The notes beneath the pieces are model-generated. The model saw nothing but the letters and a program-made list of their open reading frames with translations, searched no databases and was not told where the DNA came from. DNA of 64,000 nt, from the sequence record PQ567651.1; one strand, written 5' to 3'. A program made the position numbers and the translations under genes. Origin of the DNA: Escherichia phage cardinal. How positions within the stretch are numbered: position 1 is the stretch's first letter; each line of letters opens with the position of its first letter. This document shows positions 16,516-37,047 of this stretch, one piece after another.

Positions 16516-16526
16516 TAGGAGAGGAA

Positions 16527-18791: not shown

Positions 18792-18798
18792 TGAAACT

Positions 18799-18822
18799 AG
18801 GGGGCTTTGTCCCCCTTTCTTA
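18799..18822 (+). terminator. hairpin aggggg-ctttgt-ccccct + T-rich tail
   Basis: located right after nrdA stop. Confidence 0.5.
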
Positions 18823-18831
18823 AGGAGGAAT

Positions 18832-19167
18832 ATGCCTACATTAGTTGTATTACCTGGAGCAACACCACAAAGACATTGGGGAAATTATACACTGGTAGAT
18901 AGTAAAGATTTTACATTCGATTGGTGTTGCCATTATATTGCAGGTTTTCAATTTTCCAGTGTTGAAATATGGGCTTCCAATGATCCAGAAGCTACCTGGT
19001 ATGCTTTAACCAGGGCAAGATATGATGGAGAGGTTACTGTACTACTCACAAAGAGTGTATGGAACGCATTAGAGAAGGCTTACATAGAGAATGGTATGGA
19101 GAGAAAACACATTGATACAATAAAAGCAATGTGTGATATTGTGGAGGATTTAAATGGCAGCGATTAA
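18832..19167 (+). CDS. hypothetical protein
   Basis: track ORF between nrdA and nrdB. Confidence 0.5.
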   Translation: MPTLVVLPGATPQRHWGNYTLVDSKDFTFDWCCHYIAGFQFSSVEIWASNDPEATWYALTRARYDGEVTVLLTKSVWNALEKAYIENGMERKHIDTIKAMCDIVEDLNGSD

Positions 19168-20239
19168 TTTATACAACGACACTTACAAAGAAGGTTTCTA
19201 CCCTGTATTTTTGGGAGAACAGTTAGGTATTTTTGATTCTATTAACGTAACATACCCAGAAATGCATCGTCTGTACAAACTACAAAAACAGCAAGATTGG
19301 GATGAAAACGAAGTAAACTTAGATCAGACACGAAAAGATTTCGTAGCTTGTTCTAAAAGCAACTATGATGTTATGATCAAAAACCTATCCTTCCAATGGG
19401 AAAATGATTCACTTGCTAAATCAATCATCACTTTGTTTGCACCATTTTTAAGCAACAACGAAGCATGTGCAATGATGATGAAGCAATCAGAAATGGAAGT
19501 TTTACACGCTTTGACATATTCTGAAATTATTCGTCAGTGTATCCCTAATCCAAATGAAGTTATCGATCAGATTATGGAGAACGAAAGAATCTTCCAGAGG
19601 ATGGGTATAGTTGAAGAGATAATGAGTGATCTGGCAGAGGCAGGGCATAAATATGCTCTAGGTCTGATTGAGAAGGATGATAACCTTCGTCTACTGATTC
19701 TGAAAGGAATGATTGCACTTATCGGTCTGGAAGGCATTCAATTCATATCATCTTTTGCTGCAACATTTGCCTTAGCAGAGCAGCAATTGTTTGTAGGTGC
19801 AGCTAAACTCATTCAAAAAATTATGTTGGATGAACTATTGCACGTTAAAATGGATTATGCTATTATTGATGCACTGCTGAAAGATCCTGTTTGGAGAAAA
19901 GTATACGAAGACAATATCGACGTTCTGACAGAAATTCTTGACACGGTAGTTGGACAAGAGGAAGATTGGTGTGACTATCTGTTTAGTGAAGGAAGGGTTA
20001 TCGTTGGTGGTAACGCAGAGTTGTTCAAACTTTGGGTTTACTTCAATGCCGCGCCTATCTATCGCAGACTGAAAATGAAACACAAATTCCGTGCACCGAA
20101 GAAAAGTCCACTGCCTTGGATGGATGTTTGGTTAAATCCAGATCAAATTCAAGCAGCAGCACAGGAGATCCAAATTACAGCTTACAAACTGAATTCAGCA
20201 AATAAAGATGTAAGTGATGACGAGGAGTTAGACTTCTAA
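19154..20239 (+). CDS. nrdB: ribonucleoside-diphosphate reductase small subunit
   Basis: 361 aa; position after nrdA and iron-ligand-like E/H-containing helices; C-terminal acidic tail DDEELDF. Confidence 0.8.
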   Translation: MAAINLYNDTYKEGFYPVFLGEQLGIFDSINVTYPEMHRLYKLQKQQDWDENEVNLDQTRKDFVACSKSNYDVMIKNLSFQWENDSLAKSIITLFAPFLSNNEACAMMMKQSEMEVLHALTYSEIIRQCIPNPNEVIDQIMENERIFQRMGIVEEIMSDLAEAGHKYALGLIEKDDNLRLLILKGMIALIGLEGIQFISSFAATFALAEQQLFVGAAKLIQKIMLDELLHVKMDYAIIDALLKDPVWRKVYEDNIDVLTEILDTVVGQEEDWCDYLFSEGRVIVGGNAELFKLWVYFNAAPIYRRLKMKHKFRAPKKSPLPWMDVWLNPDQIQAAAQEIQITAYKLNSANKDVSDDEELDF

Positions 20240-20457
20240 TGAAACTACTTTGTGTTGGATTAATTTCTGACTTCAAAGACGTTTTCGAAAAGGGAGCCTC
20301 TTATGAGGCTTCCGAATTACAGAATGGTTTCTGTGATGTTTACGGCAAACGTTTAAAAAAGAATGGTGATCATTGGCTAGGAGTTATGTCTTGCGGTCAT
20401 ATTATAGTTAATGGTGTAGCCAAGTTTGAAATTATCAAAGGAGAAAAAGATGATTGA
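20239..20457 (+). CDS. hypothetical protein
   Basis: track ORF. Confidence 0.45.
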   Translation: MKLLCVGLISDFKDVFEKGASYEASELQNGFCDVYGKRLKKNGDHWLGVMSCGHIIVNGVAKFEIIKGEKDD

Positions 20458-20632
20458 TTTTGTTGATGTAGATATTAATTCTGACTTAACAGAAGATGAA
20501 GGTGGTGCTTTTGTGTGTTCAGATGGAGAGAAATGTTTTACTCTGATGGTAGAAACTTATGATGGTATCACAGAAATTCTGTTAACAGAGAATGAGTTAA
20601 AACAGATGTTAGAAAAGATTGAGGAGCTTTAA
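20450..20632 (+). CDS. hypothetical protein
   Basis: ATG after GGAGAAAAAG within track ORF 20426..20632. Confidence 0.45.
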   Translation: MIDFVDVDINSDLTEDEGGAFVCSDGEKCFTLMVETYDGITEILLTENELKQMLEKIEEL

Positions 20633-20634
20633 TA

Positions 20635-20781
20635 ATGGACGATGTAAGTATTTGTCCTATCTGCGGCGGCACTGGGAATTTTATTGTTAGTATGGAACAA
20701 TTTATTCCTTGTTGGAATTGTAACGGTTTAGGTTTCGTTCATACGGAAGAAAAAGAAGAGGAGGAAGATAATGGGAACTAA
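20635..20781 (+). CDS. small Cys-pair (zinc-ribbon-like) protein
   Basis: 48 aa, CPICGG...CWNCNG; RBS GAGGAG; below track size cutoff. Confidence 0.35.
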   Translation: MDDVSICPICGGTGNFIVSMEQFIPCWNCNGLGFVHTEEKEEEEDNGN

Positions 20782-21097
20782 TATTGAATGGCGTATGTTA
20801 CAGGGTGCGCCTTTTAATAAATGGGAAGAGGCTGTAGGAGAAGATCCTAGAATTGAAGAAGAATTTGATGGAGATTTTAACTGGTTCTTACAAGAAGGTC
20901 TTGATTTAAGTCGTATCTCTCCTTTCTATGACGCTGATGAATCTTACTGCATATATGGCATTTATTTAGAAGGTGGCGAAGGAAGTATAGCTGTAGATCT
21001 TGAGCAACTAAATAAGAATGCAAAAGAAGCCTATGCACAACTTCTTGAAAAATATAACATTGAAACGGAAACTATTATTTCTCAACACGTTTGGTAA
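20771..21097 (+). CDS. hypothetical protein
   Basis: track ORF. Confidence 0.5.
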   Translation: MGTNIEWRMLQGAPFNKWEEAVGEDPRIEEEFDGDFNWFLQEGLDLSRISPFYDADESYCIYGIYLEGGEGSIAVDLEQLNKNAKEAYAQLLEKYNIETETIISQHVW

Positions 21098-21110
21098 GGA
21101 GGATAGTAGA

Positions 21111-21308
21111 ATGATGCTAGATCAACTGATCAATGCTCCTCGCGTAACAGTAAGTCCAAAAACATTTGCATCACTTTTAGAAGATGCTAGAGAGGTTTAT
21201 AACTTTACTGAAGAAGAGATTCCTGTTCCTGTTGAAAAAGGTTCCAGATGGTTGTTTTATGAAGGTATTATTTTTACTGAAGGGAATAATTGGAAGGAGA
21301 CTAAATGA
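21111..21308 (+). CDS. hypothetical protein
   Basis: ATG after AAGGAGG within track ORF 21018..21308. Confidence 0.45.
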   Translation: MMLDQLINAPRVTVSPKTFASLLEDAREVYNFTEEEIPVPVEKGSRWLFYEGIIFTEGNNWKETK

Positions 21309-22213
21309 AATACTTAGTAACAGGTGGTTTAGGCTTTATTGGAAGTGCGGTAGTTCGTTTCCTGGCTAAAAACACTAAGAATGATATTTACGTTATAGAT
21401 AAATGGAGTTACGCTTCAGACCCTAGAAATTTATCAGAAACACCTAATGTAAAGTTTTGTCGTGTTGACTTGACAAATGCTCAGTTAACTGCTAAGATTG
21501 TGGCAGATGTTAATCCAGATTATATAATGCATCTTGCAGCAGAAAGTCACGTAGATAACTCAATAGCATCACCGAGTGTTTTTATAAATTCAAATATTGT
21601 TGGAACATTTAATCTTCTAGAAGCTGTTCGTTTAATGGGAGATAAATCAAATCTTAAAATGTTTCATCATATTTCAACAGACTATGTTTTTGATGGGCAT
21701 GTTGCTGGCACAGAAGATAGTAAAACAAACCCCTTGAACACCTACGGTTACAGTAAACAATTAGGTGAAACTTTAGTACAAACAGTTTGTCCTACAGCAC
21801 TTATTATCAGAACAGCTTCTGTTTATAGTGAATTTGGACATAACTTTTTGAAAACTATGTTGGAACGCTACAACGGTGGTCAAAAAGAATTTAATGTAGT
21901 ATGTGATCATTTATCATGTCCTACTTATGCACCTGATCTTGCAGAAACAATTTTTAAACTTGTAAAAGATGGTGTAAATAGTAAAATTGTACACTATGCA
22001 GGTGCAGATTATATTTCTTGGTATGATTTTGCACGAAAGATATTTCTTGTTATAGATTTATCTGTTACAGTTAATCCTGTATCTGCTTCAACCTATAATT
22101 CCAAAGCAGTCAGACCAGCAACATCTTATTTAAGAACAGATCCTACTTTAAATCCGCGAAGTGTTGATAGCGGTATTGTAAGAGCTTTAACTATACTTTT
22201 AAACAAGGAGTGA
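21305..22213 (+). CDS. NAD(P)-dependent epimerase/reductase, RmlD (dTDP-4-dehydrorhamnose reductase)-like
   Basis: Rossmann VTGGLGFIGS and STDYVFDG motif characteristic of RmlD-type reductases. Confidence 0.5.
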   Translation: MKYLVTGGLGFIGSAVVRFLAKNTKNDIYVIDKWSYASDPRNLSETPNVKFCRVDLTNAQLTAKIVADVNPDYIMHLAAESHVDNSIASPSVFINSNIVGTFNLLEAVRLMGDKSNLKMFHHISTDYVFDGHVAGTEDSKTNPLNTYGYSKQLGETLVQTVCPTALIIRTASVYSEFGHNFLKTMLERYNGGQKEFNVVCDHLSCPTYAPDLAETIFKLVKDGVNSKIVHYAGADYISWYDFARKIFLVIDLSVTVNPVSASTYNSKAVRPATSYLRTDPTLNPRSVDSGIVRALTILLNKE

Positions 22214-22476
22214 AAATGAATTTTATTATCTACGGTAAACCAAATTGTCCTTTCTGCACTAACGCTAAGATTCTACTAGAACAGCGTGAACAGGATTTTA
22301 AATACCTTACCTTAGATGAAGACTATTCTTTAGATCAGATTCAGAATCTGGTTTTAGAGAAAACAGGTGTTCTACCACGCACATTTCCTCAGATTTTTGT
22401 GGAAGATGGTGAACAGCTAACCCACGTAGGAGGTTTTTCTGAACTACGTGAATTCATGGCTCAGATTGCGGAGTAA
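22210..22476 (+). CDS. glutaredoxin / NrdH-like redoxin
   Basis: 88 aa with CPFC active site and thioredoxin-fold length. Confidence 0.75.
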   Translation: MKMNFIIYGKPNCPFCTNAKILLEQREQDFKYLTLDEDYSLDQIQNLVLEKTGVLPRTFPQIFVEDGEQLTHVGGFSELREFMAQIAE

Positions 22477-22480
22477 CAAT

Positions 22481-22624
22481 ATGAAAGGTAAACAGAAACG
22501 TAAAATCTTTTCTCGTGCTTTGGCAACAGAGCTTAAGTCCCAAACTAAAAAGACGAAGCCTAAACGTGAAATGTCTCCTGAACACCTACTGTTTCAAGAG
22601 TTAGATCATGGGGAGGGCGACTGA
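22481..22624 (+). CDS. small basic protein
   Basis: 47 aa ORF with RBS GGAG; below track cutoff. Confidence 0.3.
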   Translation: MKGKQKRKIFSRALATELKSQTKKTKPKREMSPEHLLFQELDHGEGD

Positions 22625-22636
22625 TATAAGGAAAAC

Positions 22637-23137
22637 ATGGCTAAAGTAGTTGATGTGTTTGATATGTTACGTTTTGATGAAGGACTAAAGCTAACTGTGT
22701 ATCCTGATACCGAAGGGTATTGGACAGTTGGTATTGGACACCTTCTGACAAAACTCAAAGATAAAGCAGAAGCTATACGTATTCTTGATAACTTAGTAGG
22801 TAGAAAAACCAATGGGGTTATTACTGAAGCGGAAGCTAGAAGAATCTTTGAGAGTGACGTAAAGAAAGCGATACAACAAATCCATTCAAGTGCCATATTA
22901 TCTCCTATTTACGATAAAGTAAGTCCTAATCGTAAAATGGCTATTATTAATATGGTATTTCAAATGGGATTGAAAGGTGCAGAATCTTTCAAAAATAGCT
23001 TGACTTTAGTGAGTAATTCATATTATACTCAAGCCTCTATAAATTTACGTAAAAGTAAATGGTATCGCCAAACACCTAATCGCGCAGAGCGTGTAATTCA
23101 GGTACTTAAAACTGGAACATTAGACGCTTATAACTAA
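22637..23137 (+). CDS. T4-type lysozyme (GH24 endolysin)
   Basis: MLRFDEGLKLTVYPDTEGYWTVGIGHLLTK and WYRQTPNRAERVI closely match T4 lysozyme. Confidence 0.85.
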   Translation: MAKVVDVFDMLRFDEGLKLTVYPDTEGYWTVGIGHLLTKLKDKAEAIRILDNLVGRKTNGVITEAEARRIFESDVKKAIQQIHSSAILSPIYDKVSPNRKMAIINMVFQMGLKGAESFKNSLTLVSNSYYTQASINLRKSKWYRQTPNRAERVIQVLKTGTLDAYN

Positions 23138-23140
23138 ACA

Positions 23141-23162
23141 AAGGGGCGAAAGCCCCTTTTAT
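23141..23162 (+). terminator. rho-independent terminator ggggc-gaaa-gcccc + TTTT
   Basis: same hairpin sequence as at 12404 and 34425. Confidence 0.7.
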
Positions 23163-23175
23163 AAGGAGTGCAAAC

Positions 23176-23928
23176 ATGGGAAATAAAACCGCAAAGGCTC
23201 GTCGTCAATCAGCAGCCAATGATGACAAACGTGCCAGTCGTTATGCGGCTAAAGCAGTAGGAAATGATGATTACCGTCTTGATGAATTTACCCCTGTTGG
23301 GAATCAAGAAGCTATTGTAAGAAGCATGGTTTGGAATGATTTAACCATTGTTAATGCCCCAGCAGGAACAGGAAAAACGACAACAGCACTATGGAAAGCA
23401 TTGCAAATGCTTAAAGCTGGTGATTTCAGAAAGTTGATTTTCCTTAAAAACCCGACAGAAGTAGGTGATGATCAAATTGGTTTCTTATCTGGAGATAAGA
23501 CTGATAAACTAGCAGCACATTACGAATCAACTAAAAGAATTTTCCAACAGTTTATGACTGCAAATAAATTGGAAAACGATATTGCAAGTGGCAAAATTGA
23601 ACTTAATATTCCAAACTATGCACTAGGTGCTACGTGGGATAACAGCATTATTCTTATTGATGAAGTTCAACTTATGTCACCAAATACAGTAAAACTTCTC
23701 CTTGAGCGAGCAGGTCTTAATACACGTATTGTCATTATGGGTGATGTTAATCAAACATATGCAATTAAACGAAGAGCTAATGGGTTAGGTGATTTGTTAG
23801 ATCGTGTTGTTCCTATTAACGAAGAAGGAGAAAGGGAAGCTATTGTAGATTTTATTGGTTATGTTGAAATGACAACTGCTGATAACCAACGTTCCCGTTT
23901 GTCTCAGTTCATCACGGAAGTATATTAA
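23176..23928 (+). CDS. phoH: PhoH-like ATPase
   Basis: Walker A NAPAGTGKTTTAL and PhoH-like overall organisation. Confidence 0.8.
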   Translation: MGNKTAKARRQSAANDDKRASRYAAKAVGNDDYRLDEFTPVGNQEAIVRSMVWNDLTIVNAPAGTGKTTTALWKALQMLKAGDFRKLIFLKNPTEVGDDQIGFLSGDKTDKLAAHYESTKRIFQQFMTANKLENDIASGKIELNIPNYALGATWDNSIILIDEVQLMSPNTVKLLLERAGLNTRIVIMGDVNQTYAIKRRANGLGDLLDRVVPINEEGEREAIVDFIGYVEMTTADNQRSRLSQFITEVY

Positions 23929-23964
23929 TAATTACAAGGCAAGGATGCCTGTTATGGAGGTTAA

Positions 23965-24456
23965 ATGACGCTAATTGAGATTGATCGCAATGGTATTGAT
24001 GAATGCTATCAAGCTGGCTTAGTTAAGCCGAATGAGTTTAGACAGATTTATATTGACAAGATTGAAAAAGAAATATCTCTTCGTTTAGAGAACATGACAA
24101 CTTTGCAAAAAGTTCAGATGTTTTTTAGTTGGTTGAAAGGAGAGGATTGGCTAACTAAATATTACCAGGAATTATCTGATAGTCAAGAAGGCTTGTTTGA
24201 GTGTATAATAAATGTAGCTGGGTCTAATTCAGAGTTACTCCTGATTGATGAAGAAGATTCTAAACTTCTTTTTCTTAGCAGTATTTTTCACAAGAAATCT
24301 ATGTTAGTAAGAAATTGCAGTGATTTACTAAATCATCCACTAACAAGAACTAATAAAATTCTTGTGGATAAAGAAACACTAAGAGCTATTGATTACCTCC
24401 GTAAATATGTAAGCGGTGGTAAAGCAGTCCTTAAAACACTACAGGAGGAAGTATAA
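23965..24456 (+). CDS. hypothetical protein
   Basis: track ORF. Confidence 0.5.
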   Translation: MTLIEIDRNGIDECYQAGLVKPNEFRQIYIDKIEKEISLRLENMTTLQKVQMFFSWLKGEDWLTKYYQELSDSQEGLFECIINVAGSNSELLLIDEEDSKLLFLSSIFHKKSMLVRNCSDLLNHPLTRTNKILVDKETLRAIDYLRKYVSGGKAVLKTLQEEV

Positions 24457-25109
24457 TGACAACAATTATTGCAACACGTAACAAAATTTTGTCTGACGGT
24501 AAGGTAACAGTAGGTAGTCGTGTAGACACTTTAAACTTCAAGAAAGTGCGTAAAATTGGGGACTACCTTGTTGGTGGTGCAGGACGTCTGTCTTCTATCC
24601 TGACTTTCTTTTCTTGGTTTGAACAAAACTTACAATGCCAGGCAGCACAAGAGACAATCCCAGGTTTGGTGATCCAGTCAGATCCCGATAAAGAAGATGA
24701 AGAGTTTGTGGCATTGGTTGTTCATCCAGATGGTAAAATTTATATGCACGAGGGTAATAATCCAACGCGAGCATATCCTTTAACTGAAGATTATTATGCT
24801 GTTGGTAGTGGGGCAGATTTTGCTTTAGCAGCTTTAGATGCAGGGGCAACTCCAGAAGAAGCGATGGAAGTTGCAAAACTGCGAGATGCTTTTTCCGGCG
24901 GTGAAACTTTTATCGAAGAGATCGAAGAACAACTGGAGTTAACAGCGGAAGATATTCTGAACTTCAGCAAGGAGCAACTAATTAGTATGCTGTTGACTGG
25001 TGATCCTGATAGCGATGAAGCTGAAAGTATTTTAGCAGAAATGAAAGAATCACAAGAAAAAGTATTGACAGTCTCTGAAAAACTTGATAAAGTGTCCTCT
25101 GATAATTAA
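24456..25109 (+). CDS. HslV-like Ntn-hydrolase peptidase with acidic C-terminal extension
   Basis: MTTIIATR (Thr right after Met) and YAVGSGADFALAA resemble HslV TTIV.. and AIGSGG motifs. Confidence 0.5.
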   Translation: MTTIIATRNKILSDGKVTVGSRVDTLNFKKVRKIGDYLVGGAGRLSSILTFFSWFEQNLQCQAAQETIPGLVIQSDPDKEDEEFVALVVHPDGKIYMHEGNNPTRAYPLTEDYYAVGSGADFALAALDAGATPEEAMEVAKLRDAFSGGETFIEEIEEQLELTAEDILNFSKEQLISMLLTGDPDSDEAESILAEMKESQEKVLTVSEKLDKVSSDN

Positions 25110-25117
25110 TCTAGTAT

Positions 25118-25140
25118 AAACCCCCTCAAGGGGGTTATTA
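25118..25140 (+). terminator. hairpin accccct-caa-gggggt
   Basis: GC hairpin after stop; weak T-tract. Confidence 0.4.
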
Positions 25141-25149
25141 GGAGGAGAT

Positions 25150-25578
25150 ATGTTACCAGTACCTGTAACCTTTGTAGAAAAAGCCTACTACTCTTTAGAA
25201 CAAAACTGTAAAAGAGCTAAAAATTTTATTGAAAGTTTAGCAGAACAGCGTTACACTGTATCTAAAAAGGGATGGTTCAGAACTTCACAATATTCAGTCA
25301 ACCCTTTCGGAGAAGTTCGTGTGTTGTACGGCAACACAGAAAATATCTTAGAAAGAATGTTAGAACTAGATAGGATCTCCTCCTGTGATTATCAACTGTT
25401 GAAATTTTACGATTTGTCAGAAAACTTTAAAAACTTTCTTGACGATTTATGTAAACGAAAAACAGAAGAAGATACAATACCAGTATCTATGGAAGAATTA
25501 ACGTTCTTAAGAGATATTATGGTTTTTGAAGAAGACCCTGAAATCACAAAAGAGGAGATTTTAAGTAGTGGCAAATAA
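25150..25578 (+). CDS. hypothetical protein
   Basis: track ORF, RBS AGGAGGAG. Confidence 0.5.
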   Translation: MLPVPVTFVEKAYYSLEQNCKRAKNFIESLAEQRYTVSKKGWFRTSQYSVNPFGEVRVLYGNTENILERMLELDRISSCDYQLLKFYDLSENFKNFLDDLCKRKTEEDTIPVSMEELTFLRDIMVFEEDPEITKEEILSSGK

Positions 25579-26077
25579 GTATGATCGTCCACCAACTGAT
25601 TACTATCCTACTCCACAAAAATGTATAAATGCATTATTTAGTGTAATAGATTTTAATAACCTTAAAGAAGAAGGTTTTATTTTTGCAGAACCGTGTAAAG
25701 GCGCTGCTGCTGCAATTTATCAACATTTTCCAGAAGGATCAGAATATTGTGAGTTAGAAGAAGGGAAAGATTATTTTAACCACGAATGGCATACTAAGCC
25801 GGATATTATAATCACAAATCCCCCATTCAAACTTGCACTTGAGTTCTTGCAAAAGAGCTTAAAAGAAGCAGACGTTTGCATATACTTGTTGCGTCTTGGG
25901 TTCCTAGAGTCTATTAAACGAAGGGAATTCCATAAACAGAATCCACCAACAAATTTGATTGTTCTTTCTGAACGACCATCTTTTGTTGCAGGTGGTACTG
26001 ATAAGACAGCATATGCTTGGTACGTCTACGACCCAAAAAACAGGCTGGGTTTAACTCAACCTTTCTATTTTGTTTAA
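25568..26077 (+). CDS. small DNA N6-adenine methyltransferase-like protein (NPPF motif)
   Basis: EPCKGAAA (SAM-binding-like) and IITNPPF (motif IV). Confidence 0.45.
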   Translation: MANKYDRPPTDYYPTPQKCINALFSVIDFNNLKEEGFIFAEPCKGAAAAIYQHFPEGSEYCELEEGKDYFNHEWHTKPDIIITNPPFKLALEFLQKSLKEADVCIYLLRLGFLESIKRREFHKQNPPTNLIVLSERPSFVAGGTDKTAYAWYVYDPKNRLGLTQPFYFV

Positions 26078-26090
26078 GAGGAGCATTTTT

Positions 26091-26321
26091 ATGACCGAGA
26101 AATTTATTGTTACTATGGAACTCACCTTTGATGAAGAAGATTTTGATCTTCATGTATCAACTAAAGCAGATAACATTCACACAACACAGAGTGTTGCAAT
26201 CGCTATGTTCTTTAAACAAGCTATTGCAAAACAAGCTGAAGTATGTGCTGGTTTAGCTGTAGAGTATGCAGAAGTTGTCAAGGTTCTTGAAAGTGCTCGT
26301 AACGGCGATTGGGATGAATAG
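26091..26321 (+). CDS. hypothetical acidic protein; ends at TAG followed by in-frame open extension
   Basis: ATG after GGAGCA; TAG stop at 26319..26321. Confidence 0.5.
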   Translation: MTEKFIVTMELTFDEEDFDLHVSTKADNIHTTQSVAIAMFFKQAIAKQAEVCAGLAVEYAEVVKVLESARNGDWDE

Positions 26322-26528
26322 TGGCATACAATTACTATCTGGTATATTTTTAACGAAACTAAGAAAAAAGACACAGGAACTAATGTTTATGCGGAATCCG
26401 AAGAACACGCAAAAGCTATTGGTTCAGTGCTTCTTTCTAGAATAGCAGGTGAAGAAATTCCTGTAGAGGCTATCTTTGCAGAAGTTGACCCTAGTATTCA
26501 AGAGGATGGTATTACCACTACTTAACTG

Positions 26529-26557
26529 TTGACTTTAACATTAAGGTAGTGCATACT
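26529..26557 (+). promoter_or_regulatory. sigma70-like promoter TTGACT-17-CATACT upstream of recombinase gene
   Basis: -35/-10-like hexamers followed by AGGAGGG RBS. Confidence 0.4.
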
Positions 26558-26582
26558 TCCTGTAACAGAACAGGAGGGTATT

Positions 26583-27245
26583 ATGAAGTTTGTACTATAT
26601 CATCGACTTTCTAAGAAGAAACAACAAGGCAACCAGTATGGTATAGAATCACAGGAAGCAGATATTCAACGCTTCCTGGATTCACAAGAAAATTATACTA
26701 TTGTAGGTAGCTTTGCAGAGTTTTATTCGGGTAAAGGCGATTGGAAGCAACGTAGAGAGCTTGTAAAAGCTGTTAATCTTTGCAAAGAAACAGGTGCTAC
26801 ACTTGTTGTTGCTAAGGTTGACCGTCTTGGACGTAACACAGCTTCTGTTGCAACCTTGTTAGAGATGATCAATGTACGAATAGCAACTATGCCCTCCGCT
26901 GAAAATATGATAATAAATATTTTAGCAGTTCTGGCAGAAGAAGAGGCTCGTGCAATATCTGATCGTGTTAAGAAGAGCCTTAAGGTAGCAAAAGCGAAGG
27001 GAACGCTTCTTGGTGCAGCAAACCCTAAATACAAAAGAACAGATTATAAGAAAACGGAAGAAGCAAAACGCTCAAGAGAGTTTGCGCTTTCTTTAAAAGA
27101 TTCTTTAGTTGCATACAGAGCTTGTAAAACGCCATATATGACGATTGCAAAGCATCTGAATGAATCAGGAAAGAGAACTATTCGTGGGAGTTTGTTCGAT
27201 GCCAAAGCGGTACAACGTCTTTGTGCAAAATTGAATATTAAATAA
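26583..27245 (+). CDS. serine recombinase (resolvase/invertase family)
   Basis: YHRLS (catalytic Ser context), VAKVDRLGRN, EEEARAISDRVKKSL motifs. Confidence 0.75.
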   Translation: MKFVLYHRLSKKKQQGNQYGIESQEADIQRFLDSQENYTIVGSFAEFYSGKGDWKQRRELVKAVNLCKETGATLVVAKVDRLGRNTASVATLLEMINVRIATMPSAENMIINILAVLAEEEARAISDRVKKSLKVAKAKGTLLGAANPKYKRTDYKKTEEAKRSREFALSLKDSLVAYRACKTPYMTIAKHLNESGKRTIRGSLFDAKAVQRLCAKLNIK

Positions 27246-27254
27246 GGAGGAAAC

Positions 27255-27458
27255 ATGGCAGTTCAATCTTTTGAGGAGACTGTTAAAAAACAATTCCTAT
27301 CGAAGCGAGCGATGGTTGAATTTTTGCATTTTCTCGAAGTAGATAGGGTACTTATTGAGACTACACCAGATGGTAACTGGCAAGTCTCGTATATTGCCAC
27401 CAGGCATATCGTAGACAGTACGAAAGAAGAAAGTTCGGAAGTTACGGTTGCTAGTTAA
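27255..27458 (+). CDS. hypothetical protein
   Basis: track ORF, RBS AAGGAGG. Confidence 0.5.
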   Translation: MAVQSFEETVKKQFLSKRAMVEFLHFLEVDRVLIETTPDGNWQVSYIATRHIVDSTKEESSEVTVAS

Positions 27459-27469
27459 AGGAGTTAAGT

Positions 27470-28042
27470 ATGCGTTTAGCTTTTAACGGGAAGATAAGCA
27501 CAGCAAACATATTATCAGCCATAGGATTATTAGGTAAAAAATTCACACCTTTCAGTTTACCTGTTTGTGTAGATTTTGATCATGTATTTGATATTAATAA
27601 TCCTTCACGTTGTATCGCCAGAAGTAATATTGATAACCCAAGTGAAAATCTGTTTTATATTACTAAACCATCCCAGGCAATTTTGAATCAATGGGAAGCA
27701 GGTCTGATTAAACCAGGTAAATATTTTGCATTACTACCTTGTAAATCATTGGCTATAGAGGACAGTCTAAACTATGCAAACAATCTTGTTGTTACAGCAT
27801 TCATTGTCTCAGAAAAAGAAGAAACTGCGGCACTTGCAAACACTGTTAAATCTTTGTATGATGCTTTGGGTGTTACTTACACTACCTTCGTTTGTGAAGA
27901 TATTCCACATTGCGTTGAATTCGTGGTGAATGGTGTAACTGTATGTCGTGTAGAAACAACTCAAGACGAAGACGTTTTTATTACTGTAGCCGATGTAATA
28001 TCTGAACCTGTGTTTAGTTATGCAGTTTCATTAACACATTAA
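27470..28042 (+). CDS. hypothetical protein
   Basis: track ORF. Confidence 0.5.
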   Translation: MRLAFNGKISTANILSAIGLLGKKFTPFSLPVCVDFDHVFDINNPSRCIARSNIDNPSENLFYITKPSQAILNQWEAGLIKPGKYFALLPCKSLAIEDSLNYANNLVVTAFIVSEKEETAALANTVKSLYDALGVTYTTFVCEDIPHCVEFVVNGVTVCRVETTQDEDVFITVADVISEPVFSYAVSLTH

Positions 28043-28052
28043 GGAGAAGGGG

Positions 28053-28379
28053 ATGAAAATAACGACAGAACAGGCTTTAATAGACAAAGGAAGGGAAATC
28101 TTAGAAAGTCATTTGGAGGATATTCAAAGGACTCCAGGGTATCTCGGCTGGCGTATACAAGAAGCCGTCGATTTTCTACCCCGTAAAAATAAAGAGATTG
28201 AAGTAAGATCTCTATTCCTCCTTGTTAAAGTAGATGGTGACGCTATATACAAAGATGTAGCGTCTCACATTGAACAAATAGAAGAAAAAGCCTACAAAGA
28301 ATTTGCAGATCTTGTTGTAGAACATAATATAGAAGGTAAAGTTAATATCTTTATACTTATGGATTTTGAGGAGAGTTGA
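28053..28379 (+). CDS. hypothetical protein
   Basis: track ORF, RBS AAGGAGAAGGGG. Confidence 0.5.
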   Translation: MKITTEQALIDKGREILESHLEDIQRTPGYLGWRIQEAVDFLPRKNKEIEVRSLFLLVKVDGDAIYKDVASHIEQIEEKAYKEFADLVVEHNIEGKVNIFILMDFEES

Positions 28380-29121
28380 TGCTAGTATATCAAGAAATTA
28401 GTGTAAAAGATGATCAAGACCTGTTTATTATTGGTGATTTACATGGTTGCTTTGATTGTACCAGAAAGGTGTTAATACTTTAGGTATCCGAGATCAAGAT
28501 GTTGTTGTATCTTTAGGAGATCTTACAGATCGCGGCAAGCAGAATTTTCGTTGTGTTGTTGAATTCACCAGAAAGCTAAATCGTTATGGTATTCGTGGAA
28601 ACCATGAAGATATGATGATTAAAGGGTTGCTAGAAGGTGATAGACGATATTACGAATGTTGGTTTCAGAACGGAGGCCATACAGTTCTAGACGAGTGTGG
28701 AGAAGAGGGTGCAACTGCTCTTGCTTCGATGCTAGAAGATTTACCTGTTGTACTTGTTGTCAATTATCGTAATATGAAACTAGGCTTTATTCACGGTGGG
28801 TATCCTTCAGTTTTGGAACATTTGCCAATAACAGAAGTTTTGCCATTTTGTTTGAATATGAATAAAGAGCAAGTTTCTCGATTCACAGAATCTTTAATGT
28901 GGGATCGTGATATGATAGATTGCGCACTTGAAGGGATTCTTCTTCCTAGAGTTTCAGGAGTAGATTATGTATTTCACGGGCATTCTTATGTTCCTAAACC
29001 TGTGATTAGCAGTAATAGGGTATATATGGACACAGGATCTTGCTTCAATGGTAATTTAACCTTTGCATATTTTGATGATTCAAATACGTTACAATTTTAT
29101 TCTACTTTAGAGGAGGACTAA
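28379..29121 (+). pseudogene. lambda-type Ser/Thr protein phosphatase (PPP family) interrupted by apparent 1-nt frameshift near 28465..28483
   Basis: GDLHGC in frame of ATG 28379, then GDLTDRG, GNHE, HGG, GH in the track frame 28456..29121. Confidence 0.6.
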
Positions 29122-29441
29122 TGTATAAAATCACAATTAAAGAAACAGTAGGAGAACTTACGAAAGAAACTACTATTGAGACGGAAGATGTTGAGTTAGT
29201 CAAAGAGCTTTTATTTCCAAAACCAGAAATAAAAGATAATGATGAACAGTTGGATGAAGATAATGAGACAGCAAGGGATAAATGGAAGAAACAACTAGCG
29301 GAGATTTGGAAAAAGCCTGAAGTAACTCCTCCATTTGATCCTCGTAGACCTTATAATCCTTGGGAAATTGGAAGCCCTTGGTTTACGTACCCTATTACTC
29401 CAATTGTTAATCCAATTGTTACTCCCAATATTACTTGTTAA
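29121..29441 (+). CDS. hypothetical protein
   Basis: track ORF. Confidence 0.5.
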   Translation: MYKITIKETVGELTKETTIETEDVELVKELLFPKPEIKDNDEQLDEDNETARDKWKKQLAEIWKKPEVTPPFDPRRPYNPWEIGSPWFTYPITPIVNPIVTPNITC

Positions 29442-29451
29442 GGAGAAAACC

Positions 29452-30030
29452 ATGAGCGATTTATTCTACACAGGTGTTGGTAGCAGAGATATTACAGACG
29501 AAGAATGGGATACTATGGTATCTGTTGCAAAATGGCTATCTACATGGTTCATTTTGCGATCTGGTAAAGCAGAAGGTGCAGATTCCGCATTTGAATGCGG
29601 GGTATATGATAGTGGGAACAATACAAAGAAAGAAATATACATCCCTTGGCTCTCGTTTAAAGGTAATGAAATAGAGGGAGAGGTTATTGTTCTTGACAGA
29701 CCAGATAGTGTAAACTATGCTCTAACCTTGCAATATGCAAAAGAATTGCATCCAGCTTGGGACAGATTATCTCAAGGTGCTAAAAAATTACATCAAAGAA
29801 ATATCCACCAAGTTCTTGGAAGAGACCTTGAGAATCCAAAACCATCTTGTTTTCTTTTAGCTTGTGCAAATACAGATAAAAATGGAGATCCTTTAGGTGG
29901 TACAAGAACAGCTTGGATGTTGGCTAAAAAGTTTAATGTCCCTTGTTTTAATATTCGAGGTAAAAGTAAAAAACAAATTTTCGAATTTATTAAGCCTATT
30001 TTAGAGGAGAATGGTCTTGTCCAGAAATAA
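29452..30030 (+). CDS. SLOG/DprA-like Rossmann-fold protein
   Basis: ATG after AAGGAGA; YTGVGSRDIT and SGKAEGADSAFECG resemble DprA/YpsA-type motifs. Confidence 0.4.
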   Translation: MSDLFYTGVGSRDITDEEWDTMVSVAKWLSTWFILRSGKAEGADSAFECGVYDSGNNTKKEIYIPWLSFKGNEIEGEVIVLDRPDSVNYALTLQYAKELHPAWDRLSQGAKKLHQRNIHQVLGRDLENPKPSCFLLACANTDKNGDPLGGTRTAWMLAKKFNVPCFNIRGKSKKQIFEFIKPILEENGLVQK

Positions 30031-30535
30031 TATAAGCGTCATTAAAGATAGTTTTATTGATGTAACAAACGATATTGTACCTACAATACAATATATAGTT
30101 GAGGCACAAGGTTTAAACTTTATACGTGATAAAGTTAAGATTGTTTTTCATAACACTCCAGGTTTTGTAACAGTAGGTTCAACAAAAACGCCGTGCTCTA
30201 CAGATCTGATTACTTTAGACAAAAACTTAACACAAGAAGAAGTAGAAATTCTTAACCTCTATTGGCTAGGTTTTAAAAGATATGAGGATACAGCTTTATC
30301 CCGAATGTCAACTATTTTAGCTAACATTCTGGTTCGGAAAATTTCTAAACTATGGGATGAAGAAAACCCAGATGAAATAGTTTTACACTTTGCTAAACCG
30401 GAAGACGGGGCATATGATATAGACACATCTGAAATGGCTTATGGGTTTATTATTTCTGGTAATGTATTACAGATGGAATCTTTATTGTATGTTGAGACAG
30501 TAAAACACAATAACAATTACGAGGAGGTTGTATGA
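30011..30535 (+). CDS. hypothetical protein
   Basis: track ORF. Confidence 0.5.
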   Translation: MVLSRNNISVIKDSFIDVTNDIVPTIQYIVEAQGLNFIRDKVKIVFHNTPGFVTVGSTKTPCSTDLITLDKNLTQEEVEILNLYWLGFKRYEDTALSRMSTILANILVRKISKLWDEENPDEIVLHFAKPEDGAYDIDTSEMAYGFIISGNVLQMESLLYVETVKHNNNYEEVV

Positions 30536-30789
30536 AAGGTTTAGAGTTTAACTTTGTAGATGCGTGGGAAGGATGGGATGAACTAGGAGTAGGGGATTTA
30601 TGTTTTTATGATGTTACCTTGAAGGAAGAATACAAACATCTAGCTCCTAGTGAAGATTGCGATGTGATTCTAACTATCCTATTAAGTCAGTCTATAGTGC
30701 AATTTGATTTTCTAAAAGGTAGTGAGTGTATTGAAAGTAAAGCATTCCGTTTAGAAGTTTCTCTTGGTGAAGAAGTTCCTGTAGAATAA
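30532..30789 (+). CDS. hypothetical protein
   Basis: track ORF. Confidence 0.5.
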   Translation: MKGLEFNFVDAWEGWDELGVGDLCFYDVTLKEEYKHLAPSEDCDVILTILLSQSIVQFDFLKGSECIESKAFRLEVSLGEEVPVE

Positions 30790-30792
30790 TAT

Positions 30793-30817
30793 AAACCCGC
30801 TTCGGCGGGTTTTTTGT
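30793..30817 (+). terminator. rho-independent terminator cccgc-ttcg-gcggg + TTTTTT
   Basis: strong hairpin and T-tract after stop. Confidence 0.75.
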
Positions 30818-30845
30818 TGACAACACCAGTTTTTTCGAATAAACT
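30817..30845 (+). promoter_or_regulatory. sigma70-like promoter TTGACA-17-TAAACT
   Basis: directly after terminator, upstream of 30872 gene. Confidence 0.45.
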
Positions 30846-30871
30846 ACAGAAAAACAGAAGAGGAGTTTAGC

Positions 30872-31282
30872 ATGTATTATAGTGATTATTTTGTAAACCC
30901 AACAAAAGAACAACTTCAATCAGCAGTGGATAAGATGCAGATTGTAGTTAAAGAATGTGAAAAAATAAGAAAACAACTACAAGAAGAGACTGTTGTTGTT
31001 AATAAATGGTTTGGTCTTAGGAAGAAAGTTGTTAGTAAACACAATATCATCCTTGAAAAAGCAAAAACGACAGGAACTAGTTACGCCTTACAAGCCTTGT
31101 TACTAAATTACATTGATATAGAACAACATTCTCTTCTGCACTGTTGGCTTAACAGTCCTGGTATTGAGGATCTCTTGTTCTGGTTATCGTGTGAATCTGT
31201 ACTTTTAAATGAGAATGAGGCTTACCGTTTAAACTTCTGCCTCAAGGCAGAATTACCAGCTAGTGTTAAGGAGAAGAAGTAA
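30872..31282 (+). CDS. hypothetical protein
   Basis: track ORF, RBS GAGGAG. Confidence 0.5.
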   Translation: MYYSDYFVNPTKEQLQSAVDKMQIVVKECEKIRKQLQEETVVVNKWFGLRKKVVSKHNIILEKAKTTGTSYALQALLLNYIDIEQHSLLHCWLNSPGIEDLLFWLSCESVLLNENEAYRLNFCLKAELPASVKEKK

Positions 31283-31284
31283 TA

Positions 31285-32274
31285 ATGAAAGTTTTAAGTC
31301 TTTTTGATGGTATGTCAGGAGGAATGCTTGCGCTAAAAAGTGCAGGTATTGAAGTAGATACATATTATGCTTCAGAATTAGACAAATTCGCCATAGCTGA
31401 AAGCCAAGCAAATTTTCCAGATATTATTCAGTTAGGTGATGTTACAAAATGGAGAGAATGGGATATCCCGTGGGGAGAAATTGATCTTTTGTTAGGTGGT
31501 AGTCCGTGTCAAGGCTTCTCTTCTTCTGGTAAGGGTTTGAACTTTCAAGATCCGCGATCTAAGCTATTCTTCGAATATGTTGAGATTCTTGAACATATTA
31601 AAAAGTTTAACCCTAATGTTAAGTTCATGCTTGAAAACGTTAAGATGAAAGTGGAGTGGGAAAACGTGATCACAAGTTACTTAGGTGTTGATCCCGTATT
31701 CATTAACTCCGCAGATTTCACGGCACAGAATAGACAACGTTTATACTGGTGCAACTGGGAAATAAAGCCTTGGGATATTACCAATGCAGTGCTGCAAGAT
31801 ATCATTGAAGATGATAGTATTGTAGACAGAGATAAGGCTTATTGCATAGATGCAAATTATGCCAAAGGTGGTAATATAGAACAGTATTTTGAAAAGAGTC
31901 GCAGACAACTGGTTTTTTATCCGGCAGCAATATATGGGCGTAGAATTAATGAAAATGGCAAACGTAGTACATCTAAAACTGATCGTTTGGTACATTGTTT
32001 GGAAGTTCAGGACAGTGAAAAAACTCGTTGCCTCACGACTGTGCCTAAAGACGTACTATTAGCTTACATTCCACCTGGAAGATATCTAGATGCCTTTGAA
32101 AAATTAAGTGAAGGCGTACATTATAGAAAGTTAACGGTTAAAGAGTGTTGCCGCTTGCAAGGTGTGCCAGATGACTACTTTAAAGTGAGTAGTAACACAC
32201 AAGCATATAAGATGTTAGGTAACGGTTGGACTATACCTGTCATTGCACATATTCTTAAATGTATGGAGGAATAG
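31285..32274 (+). CDS. DNA (cytosine-5)-methyltransferase
   Basis: SLFDGMSGG (motif I), GGSPCQGFS (PCQ motif IV), ENV, CCRLQGVPDDY, GNGWTIPVI. Confidence 0.8.
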   Translation: MKVLSLFDGMSGGMLALKSAGIEVDTYYASELDKFAIAESQANFPDIIQLGDVTKWREWDIPWGEIDLLLGGSPCQGFSSSGKGLNFQDPRSKLFFEYVEILEHIKKFNPNVKFMLENVKMKVEWENVITSYLGVDPVFINSADFTAQNRQRLYWCNWEIKPWDITNAVLQDIIEDDSIVDRDKAYCIDANYAKGGNIEQYFEKSRRQLVFYPAAIYGRRINENGKRSTSKTDRLVHCLEVQDSEKTRCLTTVPKDVLLAYIPPGRYLDAFEKLSEGVHYRKLTVKECCRLQGVPDDYFKVSSNTQAYKMLGNGWTIPVIAHILKCMEE

Positions 32275-32397
32275 TGGAAACATTGTGGAAAGGCTGGAAG
32301 ACTGCTCTGATAGCTTTTATAATTCCATTAACTTTTCTTGGTTGGTGTTTTTGGGAATTTATCTTTTGGTTAATTTCCCATATACATTGGGGGTAAT

Positions 32398-33006
32398 ATG
32401 ACTCAAAAAGTTGCATATCAAGTAGATCGTGAAGATGGTGAAGGTAGTGTTGTAGTTTTTGATACACATGGTCTTGCAGCAAGACGCAAAGGCGCTTGTC
32501 TACTGGACATTGGTGGTGAAGATGAATACTGCACTGTACGTAGAGTAAAAGAATTTGATCAATATGCTGAAAAAGGTTTTGTACCCGTGAAAGCACTATT
32601 AGAAGCTGGATGGTGGATACCTAGTGCACATGATTATGATATTTTGGAAGATACAGATGAATTCAACAGTGAAGATTTTGTTTTTTCTCTGGATGAAAAA
32701 TGCGTTTGGAAAAACTGGGATGAAATGGAACGCCATGCTTATTTTATAAACGAAGCATTAGATCGTAAAACTTGGTTTGAAAATACAGTTAAAGCAGCGT
32801 ATCCTCAATTTACTTTTATACAGTTTTGGGGTGGCCCACATCATATTACTCATACAGCATATTTCGAGTTCCCAGGTTCACGTTATAAAGGTACTGTTTA
32901 TTGGGATTGGGACGAGGACAAAGAACCTTCTGCTCAAGACTTCCGTTGCTATGTTTGTCAAGGTGATCAAGAAGCCCTTGACAAGTACCTTAAAAGTCTG
33001 GTATAA
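32398..33006 (+). CDS. hypothetical protein
   Basis: track ORF. Confidence 0.5.
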   Translation: MTQKVAYQVDREDGEGSVVVFDTHGLAARRKGACLLDIGGEDEYCTVRRVKEFDQYAEKGFVPVKALLEAGWWIPSAHDYDILEDTDEFNSEDFVFSLDEKCVWKNWDEMERHAYFINEALDRKTWFENTVKAAYPQFTFIQFWGGPHHITHTAYFEFPGSRYKGTVYWDWDEDKEPSAQDFRCYVCQGDQEALDKYLKSLV

Positions 33007-33023
33007 TCCGTAAAACTTAACCA

Positions 33024-33050
33024 AAGCCCCCCAAGCAGGGGCTTTATTTG
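33024..33050 (+). terminator. hairpin agcccc-ccaagca-ggggct + T-rich tail
   Basis: after stop of 32398..33006. Confidence 0.55.
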
Positions 33051-33062
33051 TCTGGAGGATAT

Positions 33063-34417: not shown

Positions 34418-34424
34418 CTTAACC

Positions 34425-34448: not shown

Positions 34449-34460
34449 TAGGAGAATATT

Positions 34461-37046: not shown

Positions 37047-37047
37047 A

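What the first reader, a model, noticed from the sequence alone, without database searches (positions are those of the whole stretch)
25568..26077. Small N6-adenine-methyltransferase-like gene in addition to the C5 methyltransferase
A 169-aa protein carries a SAM-binding-like EPCKGAAA and an IITNPPF motif IV. Together with the Dcm-like enzyme at 31285..32274 the phage would carry two orphan methyltransferases, a pattern linked to restriction evasion.
Basis: inference. Interest (0 to 1): 0.35.

Follow-up and report, generated by a model that had tools for sequence, protein, structure and literature searches.

The report
Small orphan phage adenine-methyltransferase-like gene
This is a real, conserved 169-residue gene of a phi92-like E. 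coli phage that folds like the catalytic core of an adenine methyltransferase. Public records already annotate it that way, and published data show these phages are not broadly protected from restriction, so the finding is ordinary.

Summary
The ORF at 25568..26077 (+) is real: 169 aa, GTG start, GAGGAG ribosome-binding site. The window is a phi92-like phage (Justusliebigvirus, 98.5-99.1% identical to phi92, PATM, EmilieFrey). This gene is already annotated there as 'putative N6 adenine methyltransferase' or 'DNA methyltransferase' (PHROG 799, E 8e-57).

Most likely it is a stand-alone m6A DNA methyltransferase of unknown sequence specificity. The substrate is inferred, not shown.

'Two orphan methyltransferases' holds for the window. 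The genus carries a third, outside the window. 'Restriction evasion' is weakly supported: phi92-like phages are reported as exceptionally sensitive to restriction-modification and BREX. The stronger anti-restriction signal in the sequence is avoidance of palindromic sites.

The parts
25568..26077 (+). Small methyltransferase-like gene, 169 aa plus stop, GTG start. Ortholog of bas61_0203 and phAPEC8 gp177.
   Evidence: PHROG 799 E 7.8e-57. AF2 pLDDT 90.6. dN/dS 0.05-0.09.
25552..25557 (+). GAGGAG ribosome-binding site, 10 nt upstream of the GTG start. The start overlaps the upstream ORF by 11 nt.
   Evidence: Read directly from the sequence. The same AAAGAGGAG context occurs upstream of the phAPEC8 ATG start.
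25598..25615 (+). N-terminal D11-Y-Y-P-T15-P16 segment, resembling motif X of gamma-type amino-methyltransferases.
   Evidence: T15 is invariant; D11, Y13 and P16 are conserved in at least 90% of 46 homologs. It aligns with the Y-F-T-P segment of the type I M subunit 2okc.
25688..25711 (+). Motif I, E41-P-C-K-G45-A-A-A (SAM-binding loop). In this clade the second glycine of the GxG consensus is replaced by alanine and one residue is inserted.
   Evidence: E41, P42, C43 and G45 are conserved in at least 90% of homologs. The segment follows strand E39-41 in the model.
25751..25774 (+). E62 (motif II acidic residue at the end of strand 2) through D68-Y69 (motif III-like).
   Evidence: E62 and D68 are conserved in at least 90% of homologs and Y69 is invariant. 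Their roles are assigned by analogy with class I methyltransferases (inference).
25808..25828 (+). Motif IV, I81-I-T-N84-P-P-F87 (catalytic loop for an exocyclic amino group).
   Evidence: I81, T83, N84, P85 and P86 are invariant and F87 is conserved in at least 90% of homologs. It is the only such motif in the window. It follows strand E80-83.
25973..26032 (+). R136-P-S-F139 (motif VIII-like) plus the loop 140-148 and T144-D145...Y149-A-W151...D155. This is the candidate substrate-contacting region and the only lower-confidence part of the model.
   Evidence: R136, P137, F139, D145 and D155 are invariant. Mean pLDDT for residues 141-150 is 77. Some homologs carry a four-cysteine zinc-ribbon-like insert (CG...C-x-CG) exactly here.
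31285..32274 (+). C5 cytosine DNA methyltransferase, 329 aa, the second methyltransferase of the window (ortholog of bas61_0190).
   Evidence: PF00145 E 1.8e-43, TIGR00675 E 5.9e-41, PHROG 116 E 3.7e-74.

Best explanation
The gene encodes a stand-alone, minimal SAM-dependent methyltransferase of the amino-methylating (N6-adenine) type.

Proposed mechanism. SAM binds through motif I (E41-P-C-K-G45), E62 and D68/Y69. A target adenine is flipped out of double-stranded DNA into a pocket made by N84-P-P-F87 and F139, and its N6 amino group is methylated. The 169 residues only make up the catalytic Rossmann core, with no separate target-recognition domain. Any sequence recognition must therefore come from core loops: the N-terminal R7...DYYPTP segment, the 136-155 loop and hairpin, or oligomerisation.

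Proposed role. The enzyme is an orphan (no partner nuclease). It is made from the block of same-strand accessory and DNA-metabolism genes and would mark phage DNA at a short, still unknown motif. It could protect only against restriction enzymes that share that motif, not broadly.

What is shown: the ORF, its conservation, the fold, the intact motifs, the orphan context and the phage-restricted distribution.

What is inferred: DNA as substrate, adenine N6 as target atom, existence of a specific motif, and a protective role.

For: 2. Motifs. They run in the order X-like, I, II, III, IV (NPPF), VIII-like, and are invariant or nearly so in 46 homologs.

3. Selection. dN/dS is 0.05-0.09 against orthologs in EmilieFrey, phAPEC8 and KP13-26.

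4. Nearest sequence families are mainly DNA adenine methyltransferases. PHROG 799 'DNA methyltransferase' scores E 7.8e-57. Subthreshold Pfam hits among the 46 members are EcoRI_methylase 36, MTS 17, Eco57I 8, Dam PF05869 7 and N6_Mtase 5. The profile against PDB sequences is best to a type I M subunit and to DpnA.

5. Remote homology to the equally small phage Dam family PF05869. hhalign gives 90.6% probability, E 1.3e-6 over 115 columns. HP1 Dam hits PHROG 799 at 1.3e-7. BFVD 'phage N-6-adenine-methyltransferase' models match at E 1e-6 to 5e-5. PF05869 includes phage T1 Dam. M.EcoVT2Dam and the T1Dam-related M.Btr190III are reported to methylate GATC (PMC6602927, PMC4996451).

6. Genomic association. 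In bacterial prophage loci the homolog sits beside C5 DNA methyltransferases (L006, L009, L043), a D12 N6A methyltransferase (L043), a PF01555 methylase with a ResIII helicase (L047), and the P2-type replication gene GPA (L006).

7. Distribution. About 14,000 representatives at 50% identity match; the best 150 are nearly all 160-220 aa. Hits lie in phages, prophages and non-mobilizable, phage-plasmid-sized replicons.

8. Orphan status. No nuclease domain is found in the neighbours, and the flanking genes are not conserved with rV5.
Against: - I found no experimental characterisation of any member of this family. No member reaches a Pfam or NCBIfam threshold, and no PDB sequence is related.
- There is no target-recognition domain, so how a sequence would be read is unexplained.
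- phi92-like phages are reported as exceptionally RM-sensitive and BREX-sensitive. No protective phenotype has been seen, and extensive or non-specific adenine methylation of virion DNA is unlikely.
- The phage also has a conventional beta-class N6/N4 methyltransferase, which could account for any m6A found in virion DNA.
Confidence: 0.6

Rival explanations
1. It is an RNA (tRNA or rRNA) adenine-N6 or guanine-N2 methyltransferase that modifies phage-encoded or host RNAs rather than DNA.
Against: Sequence-level similarity to METTL5/PH1948 is not significant (E 0.35-1.1). The commonest subthreshold families, the PHROG family and the remote PF05869 link all point to DNA adenine methyltransferases. 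Homologs occur in P2-like prophages, next to C5 DNA methyltransferases and replication genes. The family is confined to phage-type elements.
Confidence: 0.15
2. It is a DNA methyltransferase with very relaxed or no sequence specificity, like Hia5 or M.EcoGII. This would be a consequence of lacking a recognition domain and would give broad protection from restriction.
For: There is no target-recognition domain. Non-specific phage-borne adenine methyltransferases exist (Hia5/Hin1523, PMC3299994; M.Btr192IV). The T1Dam-related M.Btr190III shows marked off-target activity.
Against: phi92-like phages are exceptionally sensitive to the RM systems tested in BASEL. Pau and PATM are reduced about 7 logs by BREX, whose GCTAAT motif is protected by N6mA. 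The window avoids 25 of 64 palindromic hexamers entirely, which would be unnecessary if adenines were globally methylated. Hia5 is a 281-aa Dam-like enzyme of a different class.
Confidence: 0.07
3. It is an N4-cytosine DNA methyltransferase rather than an adenine enzyme.
For: N4-cytosine and N6-adenine enzymes share the (D/N/S)PP(Y/F) chemistry. One paper on a related phage (BME3) lists predicted m4C, m6A and m5C enzymes among four methyltransferase CDSs (PMC12210895).
Against: By established knowledge, the NPPF form of motif IV and the X-I-IV motif order are typical of gamma-type adenine enzymes, whereas m4C enzymes usually have SPPY/TSPPY in a beta arrangement. All near structural and sequence neighbours are adenine enzymes.
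Confidence: 0.07
4. It is catalytically inactive, or a SAM-binding decoy with no methyl-transfer role.
For: In the phi92 clade the second glycine of motif I is replaced (KGAAAA versus the consensus KGxG). No methylation phenotype has been reported.
Against: The catalytic NPPF, F139, E62 and D68/Y69 residues are retained. dN/dS is 0.05-0.09 over the whole length. The model is a confident, complete Rossmann core.
Confidence: 0.04

Closest known systems
PHROG 799 'DNA methyltransferase': the same gene in phi92, EmilieFrey (bas61_0203 'putative N6 adenine methyltransferase'), phAPEC8 gp177, rV5-like phages and KVP40.0137
   Same: It is the same protein family, and for phi92-like phages the same gene at 98-99% identity. 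Length, motifs and synteny match, with PhoH, an HslV-like protease and a hypothetical gene preceding the methyltransferase.
   Different: Nothing differs. The name is a prediction, and I found no biochemical or methylome evidence for any member.
Pfam PF05869 'Dam': small phage N6-adenine DNA methyltransferases (HP1 Dam and T1 Dam confirmed as members here; M.EcoVT2Dam assigned from memory)
   Same: Both are single-domain proteins of about 170 aa with no separate recognition domain. Both have an N-terminal D-x-(Y/W)-x-T-P segment followed by NPP(Y/F)S...L.F, and both are phage or prophage orphans near replication genes. The profiles align at 90.6% probability.
   Different: There is no pairwise similarity and the protein does not reach the PF05869 threshold. 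Motif I differs: EPCKGxG here versus D-L-D-x-C-A in PF05869. T1 Dam, M.EcoVT2Dam and M.Btr190III are reported to be GATC-specific. The specificity here is unknown.
Gamma-type N6-adenine DNA methyltransferases (M.TaqI, MmeI, M.BseCI, type I HsdM, CamA)
   Different: Those enzymes are 380-1500 aa and read DNA with a dedicated recognition domain or an S subunit. This protein has neither, and it fails their Pfam models.
METTL5 / PH1948 RNA m6A methyltransferases
   Different: Sequence similarity is not significant. By established knowledge METTL5 needs the TRMT112 partner. The distribution here is in phages, and the neighbours are DNA methyltransferases and replication genes.

Membership tests
PHROG 799 (phage 'DNA methyltransferase' family) | Significant full-length match to the family HMM | tested here: met
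   E 7.8e-57, residues 2-163. The rV5 and KVP40 homologs also match, at 8e-67 and 1e-58.
Class I (Rossmann-fold) SAM-dependent amino-methyltransferases | Rossmann-type alpha/beta methyltransferase fold, with motif I after strand 1 and (D/N/S)PP(Y/F/W) after strand 4 | tested here: met
Gamma-type N6-adenine DNA methyltransferases (M.TaqI-like; Pfam PF07669 / PF02384 / PF13651) | Motif order X, I, II, III, IV...VIII with NPP(Y/F) as motif IV | tested here: met
   The order is read from the alignment and the model. The N-terminal YPTP plus motif I align to the type I M subunit 2okc.
Gamma-type N6-adenine DNA methyltransferases (M.TaqI-like; Pfam PF07669 / PF02384 / PF13651) | A target-recognition domain, or an S subunit, that reads the DNA sequence | tested here: not met
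Gamma-type N6-adenine DNA methyltransferases (M.TaqI-like; Pfam PF07669 / PF02384 / PF13651) | Score above the curated Pfam gathering threshold | tested here: not met
   PF13651 scores 13.6 bits against 26.4. Among 46 family members none reaches a threshold.
Pfam PF05869 'Dam' (small phage GATC methyltransferases) | Score above the gathering threshold (28.1 bits) | tested here: not met
   This protein gives no hit. The rV5 homolog scores 19.2 bits, and 7 of 46 members give subthreshold hits.
Pfam PF05869 'Dam' (small phage GATC methyltransferases) | Detectable common ancestry by profile-profile or fold comparison | tested here: inconclusive
   hhalign gives 90.6% probability, E 1.3e-6 over 115 columns. 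HP1 Dam hits PHROG 799 at 1.3e-7. BFVD phage Dam models match at E about 1e-6. However, T1 Dam as a single sequence is not significant.
Pfam PF05869 'Dam' (small phage GATC methyltransferases) | Methylation of GATC at adenine N6 | not testable with these tools
   Only an indirect hint exists: GATC is not avoided in the window (306 observed, 279 expected). The E. coli host's own Dam would explain that equally well.
Orphan (solitary) phage DNA methyltransferase | No cognate restriction endonuclease encoded nearby | tested here: met
   The neighbours within about 1.6 kb upstream and 1.2 kb downstream (23965..27245) are an HslV-like protease, three proteins of unknown function and a serine recombinase. 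None has a nuclease domain in Pfam or PHROGs.
Orphan (solitary) phage DNA methyltransferase | Methylates DNA in vivo | not testable with these tools
   I found no methylome or LC-MS data for phi92-like, phAPEC8-like or rV5-like phages in the literature searched.
METTL5 / PH1948-type RNA m6A methyltransferases | Significant sequence relationship to the family | tested here: not met
   A profile search of PDB sequences gives E 0.35-1.1 for METTL5 and PH1948. Only the fold is similar.

The most novel reading that the evidence does not exclude
PHROG 799 proteins would be a distinct, very large clade of minimal amino-methyltransferases (about 14,000 clusters at 50% identity) with no Pfam model. They would read or select their substrate without any recognition domain, for example through the 136-155 loop (which carries a zinc-ribbon insert in some members), by dimerising, or by acting on single-stranded or replicating DNA. 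Their specificity or target would be unlike classical Dam. Characterising one would define a new structural solution for DNA (or RNA) methylation in phages.
Probability: 0.2. Interest if true: 0.45.

Novelty: already known. Interest (0 to 1): 0.2.

Why it matters
As a finding it adds little. The gene and its predicted function are already in GenBank and PHROGs, and published phenotypes argue against broad restriction evasion.

What is still open is biochemical. A very abundant family of about 170-residue phage methyltransferases has no recognition domain, no curated model, no structure and no known target. Knowing its motif would improve interpretation of phage methylomes. It would also help explain how phi92-like therapeutic-candidate phages combine three methyltransferases with extreme palindrome avoidance and yet remain RM- and BREX-sensitive.

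Tried and rejected
1. Direct sequence assignment failed. Pfam, NCBIfam and a PDB phmmer search gave nothing significant for the small protein.

2. I tested whether it is simply an HP1/T1-type Dam. BLASTP found no similarity and it fails the PF05869 threshold. Only a remote profile-level link remains, so I do not file it as a member.

3. I tested whether it resembles the non-specific enzymes Hia5/Hin1523. Those are 281-aa Dam-like alpha-class enzymes with DPPY, so this was rejected.

4. I looked for a partner or specificity subunit. The upstream ORF, which overlaps by 11 nt, and the downstream ORF are lineage-specific unknowns that are not conserved next to the rV5 homolog. This was rejected.

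5. I looked for informative domain fusions among longer homologs and found none.

6. I searched the literature for methylome, LC-MS or restriction-digest data on phi92-, phAPEC8- and rV5-like phages. Nothing was found. Kelly et al. 2023 (AEM) is not held.

7. The gene has no DNA-level match in 5,426 complete E. coli genomes.

8. The afdb50 fold library was unavailable.

9. I tried to infer specificity from k-mer statistics. GATC, GCGC and CCWGG are not avoided whereas many palindromes are. This is suggestive for CCWGG and the C5 enzyme, but not diagnostic for the small enzyme.

Full report
**Observation.** A GAGGAG sequence lies 10 nt upstream, and the start overlaps the stop of the preceding ORF (25150..25578) by 11 nt. 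The protein has no internal methionine. The phAPEC8 and KP13-26 orthologs start at the same position with ATG and TTG, and GenBank annotates the same 510-nt CDS in a 98.9%-identical phage. EPCKGAAA is residues 41-48 and IITNPPF is residues 81-87. NPPF is the only (D/N/S)PP(Y/F/W/H) motif in any ORF of at least 80 aa in the 64-kb window. The second gene, 31285..32274, is a full-length C5 cytosine methyltransferase (PF00145 E 1.8e-43; TIGR00675 above its cutoff).

**Where the window comes from.** A 10-kb stretch around the gene is 98.5-99.1% identical to phi92 and many Justusliebigvirus phages: KMB37, PATM, EmilieFrey/Bas61, Paula and others. In those records the gene is called 'putative N6 adenine methyltransferase', 'DNA methyltransferase' or 'hypothetical protein'. 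It matches PHROG 799 'DNA methyltransferase' at E 7.8e-57.

**What the protein is.** Pfam, NCBIfam and PDB sequence searches give nothing significant, so I used homologs and structure.
- 225 homologs were found, all about 160-200 aa and none with a Pfam domain.
- In an alignment of 46 of them, down to about 42% identity, these residues are invariant: T15 (in a D-x-Y-P-T-P segment), Y69, I81, T83, N84, P85, P86, F93, L107, R118, R136, P137, F139, D145 and D155.
- E41, P42, C43, G45, E62 and D68 are conserved in at least 90%.
- The AlphaFold model is confident (pLDDT 90.6, pTM 0.87) and shows a compact Rossmann core.
- M.TaqI is the top Foldseek PDB hit.

So the protein is the catalytic core of an adenine-N6-type amino-methyltransferase and nothing more. 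The DNA enzymes it resembles are 380-1500 aa and carry a recognition domain or use an S subunit. This protein has neither. The only lower-confidence stretch is the loop after R136-P-S-F139 (mean pLDDT 77 for residues 141-150). Some homologs carry a four-cysteine zinc-ribbon-like insert at exactly that position, which makes it the best candidate for substrate contact (inference).

**Is it functional?** dN/dS is 0.087 against EmilieFrey, 0.065 against phAPEC8 and 0.049 against KP13-26; synonymous sites are saturated for the distant pairs. The family is very large. A profile search of 1.84 billion representatives finds 13,971 at E of 0.001 or better and 7,070 at 1e-10 or better, and the best 150 are nearly all 160-220 aa. 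The small size is therefore the native form of the family, not a truncation.

**DNA or RNA?** This is the weakest link, and it is inferred. Five lines favour DNA.
1. Subthreshold Pfam hits of the 46 members are mostly to DNA adenine methyltransferase families: EcoRI_methylase 36, Eco57I 8, Dam PF05869 7 and N6_Mtase 5. However, 17 hit the RNA/protein 'MTS' domain.
2. The family profile's best PDB sequence hits are a type I M subunit and DpnA.
3. There is a remote link to PF05869, the equally small phage Dam family. hhalign gives 90.6% probability and E 1.3e-6 over 115 columns. HP1 Dam hits PHROG 799 at 1.3e-7. BFVD phage Dam models match the structure at E 1e-6 to 5e-5. HP1 Dam and T1 Dam are PF05869 members. 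M.EcoVT2Dam and the T1Dam-related M.Btr190III are reported to methylate GATC, the latter with marked off-target activity. That VT2 Dam belongs to PF05869, and that HP1 Dam was shown to be GATC-specific, rest on my own memory of Piekarowicz, Bujnicki and Radlinska.
4. In bacterial prophage loci the homolog sits beside C5 DNA methyltransferases (L006, L009, L043), a D12-class N6A methyltransferase (L043), a PF01555 methylase with a ResIII helicase (L047) and the P2-type replication gene (L006).
5. The family occurs in phages, prophages and non-mobilizable, phage-plasmid-sized replicons. The gene has no DNA-level match in 5,426 complete E. coli genomes.

**Orphan status and number of methyltransferases.** The neighbours of the small gene are an HslV-like protease, proteins of unknown function and a serine recombinase. 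None has a nuclease domain, and the flanking genes are not conserved next to the rV5 homolog. 'Orphan' and 'stand-alone' are therefore fair. The window holds two methyltransferases. The annotated stretches of EmilieFrey that I read (about 97% of the genome) list three, the third being bas61_0037, a 243-aa PF01555 N6/N4 enzyme that maps outside this window. A paper on the related phage BME3 counts four candidate CDSs.

**Restriction evasion.** Published phenotypes do not support a broad effect. [quoted passage not shown] Picton et al. report that phages Pau and PATM are reduced by about seven orders of magnitude by a BREX system that marks its own DNA with N6mA in GCTAAT, and that they are not among the BrxU-sensitive phages (PMC8565348). 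Paula and PATM are 98.8% and 99.0% identical to the window over the 10-kb stretch compared. Extensive or non-specific adenine methylation of virion DNA is therefore unlikely. Only protection at specific, untested motifs remains possible.

The sequence itself shows a much stronger anti-restriction signature, which is palindrome avoidance.
- 25 of 64 palindromic hexamers are completely absent from the 64 kb, against a summed expectation of about 124. Examples are AAGCTT 0 against 22.5 and GGATCC 0 against 9.2.
- GGCC is at 0.28 of expectation, GGWCC is 0 against 18, and CCSGG is 2 against 9.6.
- Non-palindromic hexamers have a median observed/expected ratio of 1.00.
- Sites that are not avoided include CCWGG (114 against 86), GATC (306 against 279), GCGC, GAATTC and GATATC.
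- The contrast between CCWGG and CCSGG/GGWCC is suggestive that CCWGG is protected by methylation, from the host Dcm or the phage C5 enzyme (inference).
- For the small enzyme the k-mer data are not diagnostic.
- The unavoided EcoRI and EcoRV sites would fit RM sensitivity if those systems were among the ones BASEL tested. That they were is my recollection of the paper, not something shown in the passages I read.

**Mechanism proposed.** SAM binds through motif I, E62 and D68/Y69. A target adenine is flipped into the pocket formed by N84-P-P-F87 and F139, and methyl is transferred to N6. Any sequence selection is made by core loops or by oligomerisation. The ORF, fold, motif conservation, selection and context are shown. 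The substrate, the target atom, the specificity and the biological role are inferred.

**Verdict.** The gene is already known by annotation and the finding is ordinary. The residual interest is that this abundant family, which lacks a recognition domain, has no curated model, structure or known target.

Noticed in passing
window 1..64000 (whole window): Extreme avoidance of palindromic restriction sites. 25 of 64 palindromic hexamers have zero copies, against a summed expectation of about 124 (for example AAGCTT 0 against 22.5, GGATCC 0 against 9.2, CGATCG 0 against 8.3). GGCC is 18 against 64, GGWCC 0 against 18 and CCSGG 2 against 9.6. CCWGG (114 against 86), GATC (306 against 279), GCGC, GAATTC and GATATC are not avoided. 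Non-palindromic hexamers have a median observed/expected ratio of 1.00.
   Followed up: partly
window 21305..22213 (+), junction at 21668..21681: A 302-aa ORF is an in-frame chimera. It joins the first 377 nt of the rmlB-like dTDP-glucose 4,6-dehydratase to nt 286-831 of the rmlD-like reductase of related phages. The join falls on a shared 14-nt stretch, CATATTTCAACAGA, which encodes HISTD in both. About 2.35 kb carrying the rmlA-like and rmlC-like genes is missing. None of 55 related phage records spans this junction. It is either a real deletion variant of the dTDP-rhamnose operon or an assembly artefact.
   Followed up: partly
outside the window; L063:35999-36730 (-) in Escherichia phage EmilieFrey (bas61_0037): The genus carries a third predicted DNA methyltransferase, a 243-aa beta-class PF01555 N6/N4 enzyme (E 1.9e-30) annotated 'Dam-like' and located next to the tail-fibre and DNA polymerase region. 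A paper on the related phage BME3 counts four methyltransferase CDSs.
   Followed up: partly
alignment A1 columns about 200-235; L005:2794-3513 (+): A subset of homologs (for example P0061, P0078, P0087) has a zinc-ribbon-like insert (CG...C-x-CG) between the RPSF motif and the TD motif. The K139-like Vibrio prophage homolog instead has a C-terminal zinc ribbon (PF13248, E 3e-4). These may be add-on substrate-binding modules.
   Followed up: no
window 26583..27245 (+): A serine recombinase or DNA invertase (PF00239 Resolvase, E 8.4e-22) is encoded about 500 nt downstream of the methyltransferase in a virulent myovirus. Its target is unknown.
   Followed up: no
window 23176..25109 (+); L002 and L067: The order PhoH-like ATPase, hypothetical gene, HslV/proteasome-like peptidase, hypothetical gene, small methyltransferase is conserved from phi92-like through phAPEC8-like to rV5-like phages. 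The hypothetical gene immediately upstream of the methyltransferase is not homologous between the phi92-like and rV5-like lineages.
   Followed up: partly
phage collection records MG065639.1, MG065661.1, MG065653.1, MG065672.1: Several records labelled 'Campylobacter phage' (host C. jejuni) carry this gene. A150 is 98.2% identical at the protein level to this E. coli phage, and the others match at the same 47.1% identity as the rV5-like E. coli phage records. They look like mislabelled or contaminant coliphage genomes.
   Followed up: no
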